NCBI RefSeq assembly: GCF_964204645.1
Contig: NC_134025.1
Span: 31,166,299 to 31,230,298, forward strand
From: Tubulanus polymorphus
Lineage: Eukaryota > Animalia > Nemertea
Direction: 5' to 3'
Length of the DNA stretch: 64,000 bases
The translations under genes were made by a program, and so were the position numbers. Positions 47,901 through 59,525 of the stretch are shown here, one piece after another. Positions within the stretch are counted from its first letter, which is position 1. Each line of letters starts with the position of its first letter. Below the pieces are notes generated by a model that was given only the letters and a program-made list of their open reading frames with translations, was not told where the DNA came from and did not search any database.

Positions 47901-50900
47901 CGCTAGTCCGTGAATCTTAAACTTCGTTCCCCAAATATTCGACGTTACTTCAACCAGTTTATGATTCTACAAAATACAATACACAAAATGTGAATTAGTA
48001 GCTGAAATATTGCTGTAGATCTGTGGAACTGAACTGAGTCTAGAACTGGATCCAGAACTGTGGAGTTAGACTGTTAGAATTTTACTCTTAGAATTATGAT
48101 TAGCTCATTTCAAATGCCTTCACCCTAGAATCAGATCTTAACCGACAACTCTAGAACTGGATCCTGAGTATCAGAGAGGAAGAGGGAACTACGAAGAGGA
48201 AAGGGGAGAGGGACCGGGAGAAGAGAGAGGGAGAGGACGGAATGAGGAGAGGGAGAATTAGAGGAGAGAGAGGGAGGGAGAGACAGAGAGAGAGGAAGAT
48301 GAGAGAGGGAGAGATGGAAGGAAGAAGGAGCCAGGGAGAGGGAGAGGAGTGATAGAGGAAATGGGAGATAGAGAAAGAGGGAGCAGGAAAGGGAACAGGA
48401 AAGGGAGAGGACAGAATGAGAGAGGGAGAATAAGCGGAGAGGGAGGAGAGACGGAGAGGGGGAGAGAGAGGAAGATGGGAGGGAGAGATGGAGAGAGAGG
48501 GAGGGAGAGAAGAGAGAGGGAGGGAGAGAGAGATGGAGAGAGAGGGAGGGAGAGGAGGAAGGAGGTATATATATGTTACCTCTGGTAAGTTATCATCATA
48601 CAGCAGTTCATCAACTGTTTTATAAGTTTTTTGTTCAATTCGTTCGTTACGACAGATTTTAAACCGACGTCTGCGCCTCATCCTCGGAGAACCACATCCG
48701 CCGTCTGCCGGTAATTCACAATCAGAGTCTGTTTCACAACTACTGGAACTACTCGCAAATATATCTACATCAACACCTGAAAAACATCCCGTCAAAATCT
48801 CCGTCAAAAATCATAAGTTAGATAAATTAAGGATCTATAAATCTAACTAAGTCTTGGCCTTGAAATTTGGAATAACTGTAATAATTGGACCGGTCATTTA
48901 TCCAACTCGGAGGACACTAGGGGGCAGCACTAACCTGTTTTCTGGTTCGATTTGATTTTCGGATCGTATATGACGAATTCAGGACGTATTTTACTGGCTC
49001 GTTTACCCCGGAGTAACGGTATTAATCCTCCGAGATACTCCAGGTATAGAGTATAATATCCTCCGGAATTCTCTTCACCGTGACGTATCATTGTACAGTG
49101 TAATCTCTCGTTGTTAATAGGTGGCAGGCTGACGAATTCCCTCAGTTTAAACGGGTTTGGTATATATCCCTAAAACATTGAGAAATAACCATCCTTTATT
49201 CATTGCCAGTAAAAAACAGAATCCAGCAGCCAGTTCTACAGTTGTGAGTTGAGAATTGAATCATGAAAATAAACTGATTCTAACTCAGAGTTAACTATAA
49301 CTCACAACTGTGGAACTGGCTTCAGTTCTACAGGGATGTAATGTGATGTAATTTATTTCATCATCAATTATAATTACAAATAAATTGTATAACAAATAAG
49401 TAGATTGATGATGAGGGACCTGAACAGAGCCTTAAAGGCTGTACAATCACTCGGATGTTCAGGCCCCCGTGAGAAAAAAGAAGAAGATTGATGGTAATGA
49501 TAAAATGTGAGAGGATGTTTGAATATTGACATGAGTTGACTCTCACTCACAACAGTTGAAATGGGAATTACAAAGCCAGAAGTCAGTTATAAAGATGAGA
49601 ATCCAGTTCCACAGATAAGATTTGAATTTAGAGTTAATTCATCGCAAATGAACTTATTCTAACTGTATCAGAGTCTGAGAAATTGTTCAGTTTAAGTTAA
49701 AATAGGTCTTTAAAACGATCTCCCGAGTATTGATTCTATAAAACCACAACACAATCACAAACTATTACAAAACTCATACTTGAAAATAATATATTACAGC
49801 ACGATCAATTTTGCTGAGTCTCGGAATATTGAAATTGAGATGTGATATAAATCACTCTGAACTGAAACATTAAACCTGAAGAGACTGAAGAGACTCAGCA
49901 AAATCAGTTATACTGAAATATACCATTTTCAATGATGAGTTTTGCAGTTATTGTGATTCTGATGTGGTTTTATCCTCTCTCTACCAATAGTTTACAATGA
50001 TACTTACTTTAACAGTTGGAACGTATAAAGCAGATACTTGATCCATTAAAGCTTGTGGCAGTGGTGTCTTTTTAATACTAGCTTCATCAGGCATATAGCG
50101 ATTAATCAATTTTGAGCAGAGGAATTGAAGCATGACGATGTTTTTAGTGACCCATGCTGTGTGTATGTAACATCCTGTAGCTATAAACAGACGTTTGTCG
50201 TTGTGACCCCAGGTTAAAGCAGTCAGTGGTTTACCCTGAAAATAGAATAGATATCATTTCTACAAATCAGCAATAAAATCATATTTAATGAGATCCCTAG
50301 ACCCCACCGAGCAGGTTTGAAGTTTCTTGTACTCCTCAACCCACTGAGCACCACCACTCAGCAGGTTGGAGGTTTCTTGTACCCGTCAACGCATTGAGCC
50401 CAACTCAGGGTATCATTAGCAGGTTCAAGGTATATTATTCCCTCAACCCACGGAGCTTCACTCATTATAAGCATCTGTGGCACAAAAGTAAACTGCGTCT
50501 AACAATTTAAGATGATTTTTTGACTTAACACAGCAACTTGGCCACGGGTTGGAAGTCCCAATGTTACCTGACCTGATAGCTATTACATATCTCCCAGGAA
50601 TAAATGAAACCTTTTCAAGACCCATTTCTGCTGTTGTGGATGAATTTAAGGTCCTCTCTTGAAACGGGTGGATTCACAATGTGCTAGCTGTTTGGAGATA
50701 CAAGCAGGGATTACTGCAGCGTCACTGTGTTTGTCCACAATAATAAAACAACTCAATATCATATATCATATTATAATTTATTTATTCACAATGATATCTA
50801 TAAAATACAAGTTTTATACAAATTGAATAAACTTTGAAAATCTTTAAAAATCTTAACAAATTAGAGCTTTGGTAATATATATATATATATACACAATCAA

Positions 50901-53900
50901 TATATCTATAGTTCATATCACTACAAGGTATTGTTACTGAGGAATCCACCAGGTGGCGGTAGTGGTCATCCACTAGGTGGCGCTGTTCTCGTTGCTATGT
51001 TTAATTAGTTTAACGATCATGCTAACGACGTACGGAGCTGTAAGATTCATCCACTAGACGGCGCTGTTCTCGTTGCTATGTTTAATTAGTTTAACGATCA
51101 TGCTAACGACGTACGGAGCTGTAAGATTCATCCACTAGATGGCGCTGTTCTTGTTGCTATGTTTAATTAGTTTAACGATCCTGCTAACGACGTACGGAGC
51201 TGTAAGATTTAGACGTTTATTTGGTTGCATCAATTCCTCGCAAAGCGTCAGTAAATGTTCCTCCAATTTACGTTTTTCAGTTTTAGCTCGAGTTGTAAAC
51301 GATCGATTTCGTTTATTAGCGAACCACGACTTCACCTGAGCGACGGTTATTTCACAATCGACAGAGATCTGTTGTAATTGTTCGGTTGTCGGGTATGGGT
51401 TTTCGCGGTGCGATTCGAACCAGTCTAACATTGTTGTAACGGCTTTCTGCGGTAACCCCGCGTTACGAGGTTTAACCTCGTTATTCTGGTAAACTCGACG
51501 ACATCGGACGATACGACGAGTTGTCATCGGTTTCTTCGCTTTTACTTTCGGAGTTGTTGTTGCCATGGTAACGTCGCTCGTTTCAGGCGGAGTTTCGTTC
51601 ATTGTTGAGTAGCCGGATGAGTTCGCCGAATTTACAGTAGATGGCGTTGTGTTCGGTTTTACAGGTGGCGTTGCCGGCGATCTTGCTGGGATCAGCGGTG
51701 AAAACATAAACGGAGACATCGGCAGCACACGAGGCGCCATCTGTGGTAGATGATGGTAACTTATCGGTGTCGACCAGTTCAACGGTGTTGACCAGTGTCG
51801 TGGTGGTGTCGACCAGGCTGTAGGAGGCATCGACCAGGCAGCTGGTGCTGGTATCATATACGGTACTGGTTGATACGACGGAGGCATTACTGGACTATAA
51901 CGTGCTGCTGGACAGACGGCTGGGTGACCTTGACCTCGTGCTGCTGTAGTAGTGGTTGTAGACATGTTTGTTCTATCTGGTGTCAATAAGACTCAATGTG
52001 ACACTTACACCAAATCACACCATTTAAATACCCTGTACACTCTCTTATCTCTTCTCTCATTGGCTACAATCATAATTATCAGCTCAGTAATTAGTATCGA
52101 GGGTTGTGATTGGCTGCTGGTTGATACTGACTAGATCTAGTATAATCATCACTCACTCTGTAATTACTAGTATTCACAATACAATACACCACACACTATC
52201 AGACACGTACACACAAACTGACTGATCTTACTTCACTTCAATTAAGTTTGAGAAAAATTAAAGTTTCATGGTTTATAGTTACATAAAACCTATAGAATAT
52301 AGATTAAAAAAGTTCCTTTAAAAAGTATTTTTCTGAAAAACTGTTACAAGATATGATACAAAGATTTTTCAATCGAGCATTTCCAAGTGTCTAGTTACTT
52401 CTACACAGTTGGGTCAACATACTACGCAGTGTCTGCACAAAATCCTACAATAAAGTCTCCTCGAATAAGAATTATTCCATTTACTCATTCACCTGATGAT
52501 GCTATTTAGTACTTCAAATAAAAACAAGTTAACCTATAAAGTACTATCCGTCTCTCATCGGCTGTGGAGATATTTCAGGCGCGTTTCATGTTTTATCTAA
52601 TAGCCATCATCAGCCGTAGTTCTGATACATGTCCAGTATGCCTGATGATGGACTAGTTTATACGTCCATGGTTTGATGGTGGCTGAAACCTCAGTATATT
52701 CACAGCTATCAGAACATTTCATCTTTTCGTTTTCTGAATATAGAGGGATTTTCTACTGTAAATTCTAGCAGTAAAATCTGATGATAATCGACTATTCAAT
52801 ATATATTGTTAATTATAAAAAACTTTTTTGTGGAGAAAATAAATCATATCATATCATATCATATCTGATCTATAAAAATCTTGTGTCTGTGAATGTTTTA
52901 TTCAGCGTATATGGTGCGATACATCAAGGTCAATTTTTCAGAGCTAGTATCCATTTTCATTTTGGAATCTTTTAAAATTTGATGTTCAGTGCTTAAGGGC
53001 GTTGTCCAAATATGGTGTTTTTAGTCTCACAATGTATTTACTACCAATATGAAATGAGTTCAAAAATAGACCAAATACTTTATATCAATTTACTAAATAT
53101 GGACAGAAATATATTTTGTGCATTAAAAGAACAAATTATGTAATGATTCAATGAATGTACGAATAGACAGCACCAGCAGCAGCAGTGGCACCAGCAGCAC
53201 CAGCAGCTGCAGTGGCCGCCGCACCAGCACTAGCTACAGCTATCTGTAACAATCAATCAGCTCTCCAGTGATCAATAACAATGATTGACTGATCAATGAT
53301 CTATAATCTATTGATTTTATTGATTTATTGACCACTGGTCTCAGGGTTTATTGCTCTATTATAAACTTTAGTTACACTTTCGCCTCAAGACTCATAAACA
53401 GATTCTACAGTATAAAATCAGTGCACCGCAGAAAACTAATGAATTCTAGTCTCATTACACACTTAAAGATCTGCAGAACTTAATCAAAGGGATAATTAGT
53501 GATGATCTTTGTTTACTTAAGATCATCAGTAATTAGTGGGTAATTGCTCGTTTGATTAACTAGATAACTCCAATCATCTGATCAAAGGCTAATTAGTGAG
53601 CTAGATAGGTTAGTTAGTGAACTAAACTCTAACAGTAATTAACCAATTACTGATTCTAATTAGTATCAGTTCTGAATCCCTCTCAACGAGTGAAATGTGT
53701 GCGATAAGATTTTTGACAAATTTGGCAACCGACATTTTGAGAAAATCTCTGTCAAAATGTAGATTTTAATATAAATAACCAGGTTTTCCATGGAGAAATT
53801 ATCAGTGTTTTCAGAAACAACCGAGACAAAGATTAAACATGAATTTCGAAGAGAATTTCTACTTCAATATTCCATCTCCGGATGTGCAATATTTCACCGG

Positions 53901-56900
53901 CGAAACCAGTTTCCAATCACCGACAATAGATGGCGTTCAACATCAAATTCTATACGATTCTGGATTCTACAATTTAGACGAATCGAGCGAATCAAGCGAG
54001 AATCATCAACAGACGTCAGAGATCAGCGTTCTGGATCATCATTCTACGTCAACCCGGCTCGGCGCTCTGTGCGACGACCTTCCGAAATTAGACCTCGACG
54101 ATTTAATGGTTAACGATGAAATAGAAAAATGCGTCGATTTACGAAACGTTGATTTACGAGAACTTTCTCGTTTAGATCAAGAAATTCTATTCGTCGAAAA
54201 TGAAAATACAGATTTCTCAGCGTTATTGGATTGCGTCGATAATCCAACCGAGGATAATCCAACCAGGGATAATCCGTCCAGTGATAATCCGTCCGTCATT
54301 CTGCGAAAACTGAAAAAACCTTCAAAAACTCACCGCAAGAAGAGATCGTCACCATTATCGGAGGAAGCTATCGAATTGATGACCGCGTGGTACAATGAAC
54401 ACATCGATAATCCGTATCCGACGGAGACCGAGAAACAGTCGTTAGCCGCGTCCGCTTCTATCACCGTTCATCAAGTGAAAGTTTGGTTTTCAAATAAACG
54501 TTGTCGTTCTAACAATACGAACGCGTTCACGCGGAAACGTAAACTCGAGGATCGGCTGGTGAAACTGTGTCAGGAGTTTATACGCGACGGCAAACACAGG
54601 AAACTCGATAACGAGTATGTAGCGAATAAAATCAAAAACATTCTTCAACGTGAAACTTAGAACTGAATGAACTATAAATAACTGTGTTTATTATTGATGT
54701 TACCGTTTATAAAATTCTATAAATCACGTAAATAAAAGTTAATTTAATCGAAAATTATATTCAGTTTTATCATTCATTTTTCTGGTTTTCCTAAAGCCTG
54801 AGGTCAGAGGAGACAGTGAGGCCGAGGTCAGAGGAGACAGTGCTGAGGTCAGAGGAGACAGTGAGGCCGAGGTCAGAGGAGACAGTGCTGAGGTCAGAGG
54901 AGATAGTGCTGAGGTCAGAGGAGATAGTGAGGCTGAGGTCAGAGGAGATAGTGAGGCTGAGGTCAGAGGAGACAGTGCTGAGGTCAGAGGAGATAGTGCT
55001 GAGGTCAGAGGAGATAGTGAGGCTGAGGTCAGAGGAGATAGTGAGGCTGAGGTCAGAGGAGACAGTGCTGAGGTCAGAGGAGATAGTGAGGCTGAGGTCA
55101 GAGGAGATAGTGAGGCCGAGGTCAGAGGAGATAGTGAGGCTGAGGTCAGAGGAGATAGTGAGGAGGTTAGAGGAGACAGTTTGAGTTAACTCTGAACTTA
55201 TGATTCAGTTCCACAGAACGTGAGTTAGAGTTAACTCTGCGAGTTGAAATTAGTTCCCCTTCATCAATCTGAGCCGGGAACCTACACTACCCCCCTCAAG
55301 ACATTTGCTATCGTAGTGTGAAGTGTGGACGATCACAAATTGGAAGAATGAAAACAAGTATCAAATGTCAGAGGTTGTACAACTGTTAGCAATATCATCA
55401 CCATATAGCAAAAACATATGAACATATGATATGAACAGCAGCTCAGACTACCACTCCCTCACAGGGGAAAAATCAGATTCATACTAGACAGTTTATGTAA
55501 TAAATGGTCTGACCTATGATTAAGAACCAAGGTGTTATAGTTAATGGTACGTTACCTGAGAAGGGATTGGTTGAGTATAACACAGGTCACCAGCAGGAGT
55601 ATAAAACTGTAAACTATTGTTACATTCTAAATTTGGTAGACGTATGAATCCCCCGACTGCCAGGGCTGCTCCGTCGTTTGACCATTCCATCTTAACACCT
55701 GCAATACATAAAACAATACAACTAGGTATATAGACTGCTAGGTTCTAGGTTAACGGAAAAGATTTATGGATAGTTTAGAGTTAGGGGATGGTTTAGACTA
55801 ATTGGGGGAGGGGGGGTACCACCACTGTCCACTATCTACAAATTCCCTGAGTGAATCTGCTGCAGGGGATTGGAGAAATTTCAAGGTTAAAAATTCTAAA
55901 ATTCATTCATTTTTCATGAATCACATATTGATTAAGAAATTGTACATCCAAATTCCCTGAGTTTTTCAGGTTTTTTGGAAAATTTGTCAAATTTCCTGAA
56001 TTTTCCAAGTTTTCCGTTTCAGTGGTTGTCAGCCCGTTCAGGGTTATGGGAAGGGGTTTGGTTGCTCGGTTACCTGTCAGTCTTGTATCGATAATTCTCG
56101 GACAAACGTCGTCGTAACTCAACATCAAGTAAATGAGTCCCTGTTTAAAACTAACAGCTAACAGATACCCATCATTATCATCTGAAAATATCATCATCAA
56201 ATATCATCATCATCATCATCGTCACAGTGATATATCAGTGAGCTAGTGCTGCCATCTAGTGTTGATTATACCGTATGACAGTCAATTAGTGTATGATTTA
56301 TTTGTAATGACAAATCTCTACACGAGACTAAACATCCTTGACCTTCATCAGTGATATTTACAGCTCTATCTCTCGAAGTGTAATCTGATATATCTATTTG
56401 AGAATCTCACTCACTGTATTCGATATTCTCATTTCTTACCGATAAACTCCACATCACTGATGACTAATTTACATTACATTTTATCGGTGAAATTTCAATT
56501 CTTACATCAAACTTTGAAATAACGAAATACCTTTAAGTTCATCTTTATCATCAGCGGTAGATTCGTCCATTTTGAATTTTTCGCACGACCATGACATGGA
56601 AGTAATCTCAGAACCTTCTAATACTGATTCCTGACCGATCATAGCTCCAGTAGAACTGATCACTATTACATGACCATCTGAGATTCCTATTAATACCTAA
56701 AACAAACATATTACTGATTCTCTTTATACTGAACACACTGAGTGAGTGGCTGAGAGACAGGGGGAGAGGGGAGTGGCTGAGAGACAGGGGGAGAGGGGAG
56801 TGGCTGAGAGACAGGGGGAGAGGGAGTGGCTGAGTGAGATAGGGGGAGTGAGACGGGAGAGGGGAGTGAGTGGCTGAGAGTGACAGGGGGAGTGAGACAG

Positions 56901-59525
56901 GGAGAAGGGAGTGGGTGAGAGAGAGAGGACAGAGGCAGACAGGGGGAGAGTTGGTGTGGTTGGTCTGGGTGCAAGCGATGTAGAAGTGAGACAGTTGGCC
57001 CGGGGGGGGGGGGAGGAGGGCGACTGATTGAGAGAAGGTAATAGATTATTGATTAAACATCTGTTCATATATACGTTTCACACAATTTCACTGAATCGAT
57101 TCATTTAAACAAATCATCGAAATCATGTGCTGCTGTTCTTATTGGTTTAAAAATGAATAGAAGAGCAGGCAGAGGAGAAGGGAGAGAGGAGAGGAGATAA
57201 TGAGAAGGGAGAGAGGAAAGATGGAGATGGGGGGAGGAGATGGAAGAGAGAGAAAGAGAGAGAGGAGAGAGGGGAGAGGAAAGAGAAAGAAGAGAGAGAG
57301 GAGATGAGAGAGAGAGGAGAGAGGGGAGAGGAGAGGAAAGAAGAGAGAGAGGAGATGAGAGAAAGGATGTATAGTTTGTATACTGGTAGACTGTAGACTG
57401 AGAGGAAAGAGACAGGAAGTTTGTACAAAAATCAATACTAGTTACAGTTGTAATCATCAAATCACTTTATATTCATAACATCATCATGTACCACAATATA
57501 CACGGGTATATACCCATCAAACGGCCGGCCTACCCACGATACAGCGGATTCTGTCTGCCCACGGAGCTGATCAGTACCTGCCTACCAGCCCACGCAGCTG
57601 ATCAGTACCTGCCTACCAGCCCGCGGAGCTGATCAGTACCTGCCTACCAGCCCACGTAGCTGATCAGTACCTGCCTACCAGCCCGCGGAGCTGATCAGTA
57701 CCTGCCTACCAGCCCACGTAGCTGATCAGTACCTGCCTACCAGCCCGCGGAGCTGATCAGTATAATTTACCTTTGTATCATTAGGAACCCAAACACCACA
57801 CGTTATAGTCGTATTTTCTAAGTTTAACATTGTTGACCAATAGCGTTGCCCGGCAACTGAACCGACCAATACGAATCCATCCTGATAACAGATCAGAGCC
57901 ATTCGACCGTCATGTGACCACGCGAAATCAGTCACCTGTAAAAACAATCAGACAATCAGGGGAACAATATCACAATCAGGGGAACAATATCACAATCAGG
58001 GGGACAATCTCATAATCAGGGGAACAATATCACAATCAGGGGGATTAATTTGACAATCAGGGGCACAATCCCACAATCATGGGGATCAATCAGACAATCA
58101 GTGGATCAATCTCACAATCAGTGGAACAATCTCGCAATCAGGGGCACAATCCCACAATCATGGGGATCAATCTCACAATCAGTGGAACAATCTCACATTC
58201 ACTAATATAACCCCTGATGTACTCGTAAAATATTCAATTTTATATCTTTTTTATATCTTGTGATATTGTAATAAGTTTTATTTGCACTGACATTCCACGG
58301 TTATAGTGAAATTACAATTCATGGTCTCTGTTTGACAGTGAATGGGAGGAGAGGGGAATGTGCACTCGCATTCTTGTACTGTGAGATTCTCAATATTTCT
58401 CTTCTGTTTTATTGAAACCTGTTGACGGGATCGGTGATATATCAGATTTCTGATATTTGATGATCTCAGAGATAAACGACTTCCATTAAAAGATCAACAA
58501 CTTCTACTTAAGATTAAAGAGGACTTGTGTAAATATATCAAACTAAGTGATTAACCCTTTCAACTTCGCCATCCGATGTGTGTTTGTTTAAATATTAGAT
58601 ATCTCAACAATCAAGAGCCTGCCCGATCCAGAGATCAGGGTACAGTTCCACAGTTCAGAGTTAAAAAACTGGGTCCTGGGGTCACAGTTGCTTAAACGTT
58701 GGTTAAATATAACCAGTGGATAAATGCCATAGTAACAATGAACTTTTAATTGTCACTATGTCAGCTATCCACTGGTTAACAGTAACCAACTTTTGAGCAA
58801 CTGCAGCCCCAGGTGCTCTATATCTGACCCTCAGGTTTGGGCAGTTTCATATTGACTTGTATACATCAGGTGACCATCTCTAGACCAATCAGAATAGGGT
58901 TAGCCCATTCTTACCCAAACTCTAGGGTAGCCAGAAGTGATCAGCTAGGGTGAGTCCATTATAACCCTAACCCTAGGGTAGCCAGAAGTGACCAGCTAGG
59001 GTTAGTCCATTCTAACCCTAACCCTAGGGATGATGAGTTGAAGACCTGAGGTTAATCCATTCTAAACCTAGGAGAGGCACGTTGTTTGTTTACATCAGGT
59101 GACCAGCTCTAGACCAATCACTGGTGGCCCCTGAGTACTGTAGTGAAATGGTTGGGTAGTAAAGAGTTAATCCCAATAGGATAATGATAATAACTTGCAT
59201 GAAAAAGCTGCTGTATTTATTCAATACATGTATTAACTCTTCATACATATACTATTTAACAGACAATCTGAAACTGGGCGACTCTTTAATTCTCCCTTAT
59301 TCCTTTCCCCTTCTCAGAGAAAAATGTTATTCTGTCTAGATTCCATCATTGCTCTTCTCCTTCTGTTCTATCTCCCCCTCTCTCTACTCACTGTCAGCCC
59401 CTTTCCACTCTCCACTCTCTCCTCTCTTATTCCACTCTCCTCTCTCCTCCCTCTCCTCTCTCATTCCTCACTCCTCTTTCCTCTCTCCTCTCTCATCCCT
59501 CTCTTCTCTCCCCTCCTCTCTCCTT

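What the first reader, a model, noticed from the sequence alone, without database searches (positions are those of the whole stretch)
50236..55555. Divergent pair of intronless, atypical TALE homeobox genes nested in one TULP4 intron
Seen: TULP4 exons at 55556-55698 and 50008-50235 splice in frame across a 5.3-kb intron that contains two intact single-exon ORFs of about 275 aa, head-to-head and 1.9 kb apart. Each has an NPYP TALE loop and its own TATA-like box and AATAAA. Known: canonical TALE families have helix 3 WFGNKR (PBX), WFINAR (MEIS/PKNOX/TGIF) or WFANAR (IRX/MKX) and mostly carry extra family domains. These read WFANKRNR and WFSNKRCR with no PBC/MEINOX/IRO box that I can recognise, which fits the spiralian-specific TALE expansion (SPILE genes) linked to early blastomere specification. 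Inference: this is a compact, lineage-specific early-embryo homeobox mini-cluster housed in a host gene, one copy sense and one antisense, possibly from retro- or inverted duplication.
Basis: partly seen in the sequence, partly recalled or inferred. Interest (0 to 1): 0.88.

Follow-up and report, generated by a model that had tools for sequence, protein, structure and literature searches.

The report
Twin SPILE-E homeobox genes inside TULP4
One intron of the TULP4 gene, in what is probably a ribbon worm, holds two intact, back-to-back, intron-free homeobox genes of the spiralian SPILE family, whose mollusc relatives act in the first embryonic cell divisions, so these two likely work as short-lived, jointly switched regulators of early embryo cell fate.

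Summary
A 5,320-bp TULP4 intron carries two intact single-exon TALE homeobox ORFs (276 and 273 aa), head to head and 1,873 bp apart.

The SPILE guess is right and can be narrowed. Both proteins have a conserved helical tail after the homeodomain that marks SPILE clades D and E. Both lack the PADRE domain of clade D. They are therefore E-type (TALE-III-like): ORF-A by tree and architecture, ORF-B by architecture only. Clade E is single-copy in five molluscs, so this is a lineage-specific expansion.

New details:
- A DSG motif like the beta-TrCP degron occurs in 24 of 41 PADRE-less relatives (1.15 expected).
- TAATTA clusters sit in both promoters.
- ORF-B has a recognition helix unique among 47 family members.
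- A heterodimer prediction gave weak support.

Retro-duplication is not needed and sisterhood of the pair is unresolved. No RNA, synteny or dN/dS data were obtainable, so early-embryo function is inferred from the family. Verdict: real, new members of a known family, moderately interesting.

The parts
50236..55555 (-). TULP4 intron (5,320 bp; longest of the 11 introns in my in-window exon model) that hosts both genes
   Evidence: GT/AG ends and in-frame join; intron lengths; Pfam hits of exons
55556..55698 (-). TULP4 exon upstream of the host intron (WD40 propeller)
50008..50235 (-). TULP4 exon downstream of the host intron
   Evidence: no relevant Pfam hit of its own
51135..51965 (-). ORF-A: single-exon SPILE E-type TALE homeobox gene, 276 aa, same strand as TULP4; Pro/Ser/Thr-rich N-terminus
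51288..51476 (-). ORF-A homeodomain (aa 164-226); S47 A50 N51 N54 R55, the family consensus
51156..51287 (-). ORF-A D/E-clade tail, predicted extension of helix 3 plus a further helix
   Evidence: tail HMM 33.6 bits; AlphaFold2 model
51603..51620 (-). SSGYST, variant of the DSG degron-like motif in ORF-A
   Evidence: degron function inferred
53839..54660 (+). ORF-B: single-exon PADRE-less SPILE gene, 273 aa, antisense to TULP4; acidic N-terminus (21% D/E)
54334..54522 (+). ORF-B homeodomain (aa 166-228); V47 S50 N51 C54 R55, unique among 47 family rows
54523..54648 (+). ORF-B D/E-clade tail, predicted extension of helix 3 plus a further helix
   Evidence: tail HMM 34.3 bits; AlphaFold2 model
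53956..53973 (+). DSGFYN, degron-like motif in ORF-B (lacks the second Ser of DSGXXS; acidic and Ser residues follow)
   Evidence: degron function inferred
52022..52030 (-). TATA-like box of ORF-A
   Evidence: sequence; X1 differs at 52022
52073..52166 (.). Three TAATTA sites upstream of ORF-A, with two CCAAT matches nearby
53493..53662 (.). Five TAATTA sites upstream of ORF-B, the densest cluster in the window
53770..53777 (+). TATA box of ORF-B
   Evidence: sequence
50781..50786 (-). AATAAA downstream of ORF-A
54731..54736 (+). AATAAA downstream of ORF-B
50966..51209 (.). Three tandem 81-bp copies spanning the last codons and stop of ORF-A; each copy keeps the stop codon

Best explanation
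These are two intact, long-diverged SPILE genes of the PADRE-less E type inside a TULP4 intron, and they likely encode short-lived transcription factors that are switched on together in the oocyte or cleaving embryo. Shown: intact ORFs, TALE homeodomain, D/E tail, no PADRE, degron-like motifs, TAATTA clusters in both promoters. Inferred steps: (1) a homeodomain factor binds the TAATTA clusters and fires both TATA promoters outward from the shared spacer; (2) the short intron-free mRNAs are made quickly; (3) each protein binds DNA through helix 3, ORF-A with the family's specificity and ORF-B with an altered one; (4) the helical tail is a protein-contact surface, possibly joining A and B; (5) phosphorylation of the DSG/SSG motif recruits SCF-beta-TrCP and clears the proteins. 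TULP4 is most likely a passive host, and the pair most likely arose by old DNA-level duplication of an already intron-poor SPILE-E gene.
For: Tail HMM built from 45 relatives without the window proteins scores them 33.6 and 34.3 bits; best B-type protein 5.4, PBX 1.0. PADRE HMM scores -0.8 and 2.1, against 114 for a held-out D protein. ORF-A falls with E-clade anchors at 95/92 and 96/92; the D set (97/98) excludes both. Anchors: the homeodomains of P0162 and P0080 match the published Pv_TALE-III exactly and Cg_III_3 but for one residue (compared by eye). Clade E lacks PADRE, is single-copy in five molluscs and is maternal in limpet and mussel (PMC8524836). Oyster TALE3 is expressed egg to blastula (PMC5322547). 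DSG plus a hydrophobic residue occurs in 24 of 41 PADRE-less members against 1.15 expected, and 0 of 6 D members. TAATTA ranks first of 2,080 hexamers shared by both promoters. X1 differs at 22 places, none in 1,608 covered coding bases and 21 in the central spacer. AlphaFold2 gives a continuous helix 3 and a further helix in both (mean pLDDT 87). Heterodimer prediction: 0.56 against best control 0.01, runs agree in at least 84% of contacts, partner pLDDT at least 78; the tool rates this weak.
Against: No expression data of any kind were obtained. ORF-B is unresolved within SPILE in all three trees. AU tests do not reject placing the pair with the D set (p 0.119), and are borderline for the mollusc-like E set (0.0508) and for PBX (0.0505). 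The only two coding differences seen, in sample S2, both change ORF-A amino acids (R187P, M134T). The X1 differences cluster into about 6 blocks, which lowers the coding-depletion result to p about 0.03. 75 of 2,000 random window pairs share some hexamer as strongly. Neither degron-like motif is a perfect DSGXXS. Among complex passes at 0.60 or under were only 5 of 78 solved complexes and all 4 mismatches that passed; the interface was not given. Relatives were retrieved with a profile made from the two window proteins, which favours tail-bearing hits.
Confidence: 0.6

Rival explanations
1. Both are real SPILE genes but act independently: two paralogues of different age or clade (for example ORF-B a D-clade copy that lost PADRE) that ended up side by side and are expressed at different times or in adult tissue.
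For: The free tree puts ORF-A with P0043 and P0112 (93/89), not with ORF-B. No DNA similarity between the two genes (best blastn E 0.07). N-termini differ completely in make-up. D-set placement is not rejected. Some novel oyster TALE genes are expressed late.
Against: Sisterhood is not rejected (p-AU 0.18). Both promoters share TAATTA clusters and an identical 12-mer. Both lack PADRE and carry a DSG-type motif, which none of 6 D proteins has.
Confidence: 0.25
2. One or both ORFs are silent or decaying duplicates (for example retrocopies) that happen to remain open.
For: No transcript evidence is on hand. Long terminal branches (1.01 and 1.06, median 0.33). Two amino-acid-changing differences and no silent one in ORF-A in sample S2. 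The 3' end of ORF-A lies in a tandem repeat.
Against: Both frames are fully open although the two proteins are only 39% identical over 127 aa. All 12 invariant family columns are kept, as is the hydrophobic pattern of the tail. Coding and proximal promoter DNA is depleted of differences in X1. No A-tract follows either AATAAA.
Confidence: 0.1
3. The genes are fast-evolving offshoots of a canonical family (PBX) and not SPILE members.
For: Best PDB sequence hits are Exd/PBX1 (48 bits). A clade of both with PBX is only borderline rejected (p-AU 0.0505). Only one PBX and no named animal MEIS, IRX or TGIF were in my trees.
Against: No SPILE protein was among the named PDB hits, so the ranking reflects the library. 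Identity over 83 columns is up to 43 and 41 with SPILE proteins and 25 with PBX. No PBC domain. The D/E tail is absent from PBX. Helix 3 matches published SPILE rows, not Pbx, Pknox, Tgif or Mkx rows.
Confidence: 0.03

Closest known systems
SPILE clade E / TALE clade III (NfSPILE-E, MvSPILE-2, CgTALE3; PMC8524836, PMC6118893, PMC5322547)
   Same: Single TALE homeodomain near the C-terminus, [12 protein letters not shown] helix 3, no PADRE, the same helical tail and a DSG-type motif in a low-complexity N-terminus (tail and motif seen in retrieved relatives).
   Different: Single-copy in the five molluscs tabulated, two adjacent copies here; about 275 aa against roughly 480-600 aa for most mollusc-like E proteins retrieved; ORF-B has a changed recognition helix; both lack the P-K start of the tail kept by most relatives; nested in a host intron.
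SPILE clade D / TALE clades II and XVIII (NfSPILE-D, MvSPILE-1, CgTALE1)
   Same: The tail after the homeodomain aligns without gaps from W48 to the conserved Cys and Leu.
   Different: D proteins carry a PADRE domain and no DSG motif; both window proteins lack PADRE and lie outside the D set in the trees.
Ribbon-worm SPILE proteins P0043 and P0056 (named by their source as uncharacterised proteins of Tubulanus polymorphus and Lineus longissimus)
   Same: Same homeodomain-plus-tail, PADRE-less build; P0043 groups with ORF-A in the homeodomain-plus-tail tree and lies on a contig of the same recorded length as ORF-A's.
   Different: Only about 40% identical to ORF-A over the compared region; P0043 is 601 aa; genomic context unknown.
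ceh-10 nested in polq-1 of nematodes (PMC12274878, passages read)
   Same: A homeobox gene lying antisense in an intron of an unrelated host gene; there the nested gene's enhancer induces a short host transcript.
   Different: One nested gene of another class (Vsx); here two divergent TALE paralogues, one sense and one antisense, with nesting shown in one genome only.
PBX / Extradenticle
   Same: Nearest canonical family; sister to the SPILE set; NPYP loop and R55.
   Different: PBC domain, G50 and WFGNKR helix; no D/E tail.

Membership tests
TALE class | Homeodomain with three-residue loop extension (PYP loop) | tested here: met
   Homeobox_KN above cut-off; best structural matches Meis2 (Z 11.8, rmsd 0.6, 55 aligned) and Exd (Z 11.6, rmsd 0.7, 58 aligned)
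SPILE (spiralian TALE) | Homeodomain groups in the SPILE clade apart from canonical families | tested here: met
   53-row SPILE set 96/81 excluding one PBX and 9 unnamed NARRR-type TALE domains; bootstrap not settled; named MEIS, IRX, TGIF, PKNOX not in the tree; AU for pair plus PBX 0.0505
SPILE (spiralian TALE) | Found in a spiralian genome | tested here: inconclusive
   Named relatives are all spiralians; P0043 shares the recorded contig length; earlier AI notes say ribbon worm; the window itself is unnamed
SPILE (spiralian TALE) | Expression in oocyte or cleavage-stage blastomeres | not testable with these tools
   No RNA run was available to test it
SPILE clade E / TALE-III | Single homeodomain, no PADRE domain | tested here: met
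   PADRE HMM -0.8 and 2.1 bits; profile comparison with 7 D proteins aligns only homeodomain and tail
SPILE clade E / TALE-III | Homeodomain groups with E-clade anchors (ORF-A) | tested here: met
   18-row set with P0080 and P0094, 95/92 and 96/92; in the homeodomain-plus-tail tree it lies outside the 22-row mollusc-like set
SPILE clade E / TALE-III | Homeodomain groups with E-clade anchors (ORF-B) | tested here: inconclusive
   No starred set of up to half the rows holds it; open position
SPILE clade D / TALE-II, XVIII | Conserved tail after the homeodomain | tested here: met
   the tail is shared with E-type proteins, so it does not separate D from E
SPILE clade D / TALE-II, XVIII | [quoted passage not shown] | tested here: not met
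SPILE clade B / TALE-IV | Two homeodomains in one protein | tested here: not met
   One homeodomain each; no further homeobox in the window by tblastn
PBX | PBC domain and WFGNKR helix | tested here: not met
   No PBC hit, whereas control P0173 scores 263.6 bits
MEIS / PKNOX / TGIF / IRX / MKX | N-A-R-R-R helix 3 and family domains (Meis_PKNOX_N; IRO box) | tested here: not met
   Helix 3 has NKR; no Meis_PKNOX_N hit; Pknox, Tgif and Mkx rows compared by eye; IRO box itself not tested
beta-TrCP substrates | Phosphorylated DSGXXS or variant bound by beta-TrCP | tested here: inconclusive
   Motif enriched in the family, 16 of 41 with full DSG..[ST] against 1.01 expected; the window proteins carry variants only; semi-canonical degrons bind well (PMC13097077); phosphorylation and binding untested

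The most novel reading that the evidence does not exclude
The pair is a self-contained early-embryo switch: a shared homeodomain-driven spacer fires both genes, the two proteins form a heterodimer through the SPILE D/E tail with one ancestral and one new DNA-reading helix, and a beta-TrCP degron sets their lifetime to a cleavage cycle or two. This would give the first molecular mechanism (dimer domain plus timer) for SPILE proteins, in a phylum where my searches found no study of them.
Probability: 0.15. Interest if true: 0.75.

Novelty: new member of a known kind. Interest (0 to 1): 0.47.

Why it matters
SPILE genes are among the few transcription factors tied to the conserved spiral-cleavage programme, and their lineage-specific duplications are proposed to reshape blastomere fates. 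Published surveys cover molluscs, annelids and a brachiopod and ask for ribbon-worm sampling (PMC6118893). This locus shows an expansion of the E type, which is single-copy in the molluscs tabulated. It also yields three cheap tests of how SPILE proteins work: a conserved helical tail, a degron-like motif, and a shared promoter motif. The nesting in TULP4 is curious but has precedent and no shown function.

Tried and rejected
Whole-genome search: no genome is held for this window, so copy number, other paralogues and synteny could not be examined.

RNA: no RNA holder listed. X4, a guessed RNA run, laid on neither the ORFs nor the TULP4 exons in 48900-58000, so it says nothing either way.

Single-sequence homologue searches gave 1 hit among 36 candidates and only the self hit among 19. 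The Atlas gave only sub-0.9 homeobox leads for ORF-A (best 0.87). Fold searches matched the homeodomain only; the tail was not searched alone and its matches (Z about 6) are at the level of common helical hairpins.

TULP4-homeodomain fusion by splicing into ORF-A: no strong acceptor found on that strand of the intron, and by reading, the two AG sites just before the ATG are out of phase with the upstream exon; rejected as unlikely.

The 107-aa overlapping ORF at 53790 starts 20 bases from the start of the TATA box, probably before the transcription start; treated as incidental. CpG content and 3'UTR element scans were uninformative. PBX/MEIS-type TGATTGAC occurs once and TGATT is only marginally enriched (p 0.049); not pursued.

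AU tests did not settle sisterhood or D versus E. Earlier scan notes held nothing on these genes. Luo et al. 2018 is not held and Morino et al. 2017 was seen only as cited by others; either may list ribbon-worm SPILE genes.
Full report
Observation. Two single-exon ORFs lie head to head in one intron: ORF-A at 51135-51965 (-), 276 aa, and ORF-B at 53839-54660 (+), 273 aa. Both score above the Pfam cut-off for Homeobox_KN and hit no PBC or Meis_PKNOX_N model. The flanking exons have AG/GT ends and join in frame; seven consecutive exons give 391 codons without a stop. Of 7 exons scanned, 3 hit the WDR35/TULP4 propeller model and 2 the Tub model, so the host is TULP4. DNA contigs of run X1 cover ORF-B and all of ORF-A outside its terminal repeat, at depths like the host exons. 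This argues against an assembly artefact, although X1 may be the assembly's own sample.

A shared tail. The two proteins are 39% identical over 127 aa, and the match runs about 45 aa past the homeodomain. A profile of this region was searched against 1.84 billion representatives: 7,917 hits at E up to 0.001, best 150 listed. Of the 149 non-self hits, 45 carry the same tail by a seven-position pattern. Named members are from ribbon worms, an annelid, limpets, scallops and a blood fluke. An HMM of the tail built without the window proteins scores them 33.6 and 34.3 bits; the best B-type protein scores 5.4 and a PBX 1.0. The supplementary alignments of PMC6118893 (parts 1, 3 and 22 of 26 read) and PMC8524836 (part 1 of 6 and search passages) show this tail in SPILE-D and a different one in SPILE-B. 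Retrieved proteins whose homeodomains match published TALE-III rows carry it too.

Which clade. PMC8524836 (parts 1-2 and section 7 read) defines clade D by a modified PADRE domain and clade E by its absence, each single-copy in five molluscs. A PADRE HMM from 6 D-type hits scores ORF-A -0.8 and ORF-B 2.1, against 114 for a held-out D protein. Three trees were built. Homeodomain plus tail, 47 rows: ORF-A groups with P0043 and P0112 (93/89), ORF-B is unresolved, and both lie outside a 9-row set holding the PADRE proteins (96/94) and a 22-row mollusc-like E set (96/88). Homeodomain only, 76 rows (12 tail rows thinned out; 10 of 48 B-type first domains, 14 of 49 second domains, 17 unnamed outgroup domains; 76 other domains unused): ORF-A falls with the E anchors at 95/92. 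With one PBX and two more relatives added and 16 rows dropped (63 rows): the SPILE set excludes PBX (96/81), the D set excludes both window proteins (97/98), ORF-A stays with E (96/92) and ORF-B stays open. Bootstraps had not settled in the last two. AU tests reject nothing firmly: sister pair 0.18, pair plus P0043 and P0112 0.459, with the D set 0.119, with the mollusc-like E set 0.0508, with PBX 0.0505. The fair reading is SPILE with high confidence, E-type by architecture for both, and E by tree for ORF-A only.

Organism and copy number. Earlier AI notes on this genome call it a ribbon worm (a lead only). P0043, named by its source as a ribbon-worm protein, lies on a contig of the same recorded length as the one carrying ORF-A. 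If it is the same genome, there are at least three E-type genes, against one in the molluscs tabulated.

Protein anatomy. AlphaFold2 with 47 and 50 aligned sequences gives mean pLDDT 87 for both. Helix 3 runs on for about 40 residues and a further helix follows. Fold searches on the ORF-B model match only the homeodomain. The tail has a strict hydrophobic pattern. A two-chain prediction scored 0.56 against a best control of 0.01, with at least 84% contact agreement and partner pLDDT at least 78. The tool calls this weak: only 5 of 78 solved complexes, and all 4 mismatches that passed, passed at 0.60 or under, and no interface was given. Positions 47, 50 and 54 set the 3' part of the bound site and K3 with R55 favours G at base 2 (PMC3460184, passages). 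ORF-A has the family consensus S47 A50 N54, shared by 26 of 47 rows; ORF-B has V47 S50 C54, found in no other row. The N-termini are unalignable: Pro/Ser/Thr-rich in A, acidic in B. DSG plus a hydrophobic residue occurs in 24 of 41 PADRE-less members (ORF-B included) against 1.15 expected by shuffling, in 0 of 6 D members, in 14 of 51 B-type proteins against 1.66 and in 0 of 10 non-SPILE controls. The pattern was chosen after seeing the sequences and relatives are not independent. It resembles the beta-TrCP degron DSGXXS, whose semi-canonical forms also bind tightly (PMC13097077, passages). ORF-B has DSGFYN and ORF-A has SSGYST, both variants.

Promoters and constraint. The densest 250-bp TAATTA windows in the 64 kb are upstream of ORF-B (5 sites); upstream of ORF-A there are 3, and the two share an identical 12-mer. 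TAATTA ranks first of 2,080 hexamers enriched in both 350-bp promoter windows; 75 of 2,000 random pairs do as well, and in a sliding control most such hits were tandem repeats. TAATTA is the preferred site of Engrailed-type homeodomains; the actual factor is unknown. X1 differs from the window at 22 positions: 0 in 1,608 coding bases, 1 in 723 proximal promoter bases, 21 in 1,106 central spacer bases. Counted as about 6 blocks, the coding depletion has p about 0.03. Against this, sample S2 shows two coding differences, both amino-acid changes in ORF-A.

Function and origin. E-clade genes are maternal and ubiquitous to the 16-cell stage in mussel and limpet. Oyster TALE1-4 and 7-14 are expressed from egg to blastula (PMC5322547, section 12), and over ten unclassified TALE genes rise at genome activation in Owenia (PMC12550047, passage). 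That short, intron-free TATA genes suit early zygotic expression is recalled knowledge, not a result here. Early-embryo function is therefore an inference from family. No DNA similarity remains between the two genes, so any duplication is old. Bivalve E-clade homeoboxes are listed as unbroken 189-bp spans (read from a PDF tree layout) and no A-tract follows either AATAAA, so retroposition at this site is not required. Nesting is not rare: 567 opposite-nested pairs in C. elegans, including the homeobox gene ceh-10 (PMC12274878, passages). No link between TULP4 function and these genes is evident.

Literature gap. Searches for nemertean plus TALE/SPILE (11 papers listed), SPILE terms (9), TULP4 with intron, homeobox, nested (none of the 15 listed of 893 holds TULP4), the genus with homeobox (1 listed) and SPILE with degron or TrCP (0) showed no description of these genes or of the degron-like motif, judged from listings. 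Luo et al. 2018 is not held and Morino et al. 2017 was not read; their supplements may list ribbon-worm SPILE genes.

Verdict. These are new members of a known, duplication-prone family, with an unusual address and several testable new details. Expression, selection and synteny remain untested. Interest 0.47.

Noticed in passing
window 50966-51209: Three in-phase 81-bp tandem copies cover the last codons and stop of ORF-A; each copy ends in TAG, so read-through is not implied. Probably a by-product of this minisatellite-rich genome (101 TRF rows in 64 kb).
   Followed up: partly
proteins P0123, P0076 and other D-type hits versus P0173: The last helix of the PADRE domain aligns in one piece with the end of the PBC domain of PBX and runs into the homeodomain, hinting that PADRE is a diverged PBC/MEINOX domain. 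Pfam PBC does not hit 7 D-type proteins, so this is weak.
   Followed up: partly
proteins P0168, P0169, P0025 and other two-homeodomain hits: The DSG motif is also enriched in B-type SPILE proteins (14 of 51 against 1.66 expected), so it may be a wider SPILE trait.
   Followed up: partly
window about 985-40393, minus strand: Exons of a cyclic-nucleotide phosphodiesterase gene, PDE3-like by recalled motifs, start about 4.5 kb downstream of the TULP4 stop codon.
   Followed up: no
window 49264-49319: A short element at very high summed contig depth in the three DNA-like runs, with related copies near 55178-55240; a likely high-copy interspersed repeat or MITE end.
   Followed up: no
window 51406 and 51565: Sample S2 differs at two ORF-A codons (R187P in the TALE loop region, M134T), seen in both of its runs.
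   Followed up: partly
window 51741-51813, minus strand (ORF-A N-terminus): Several W-S-T-P-like repeats and 11 S/T-P sites, with a TPPET motif right after SSGYST; possible phosphorylation-dependent control.
   Followed up: no
proteins P0121, P0127, P0140, P0150: The D/E tail is also present in a blood-fluke protein and in three divergent unnamed proteins, so it may span Spiralia.
   Followed up: partly
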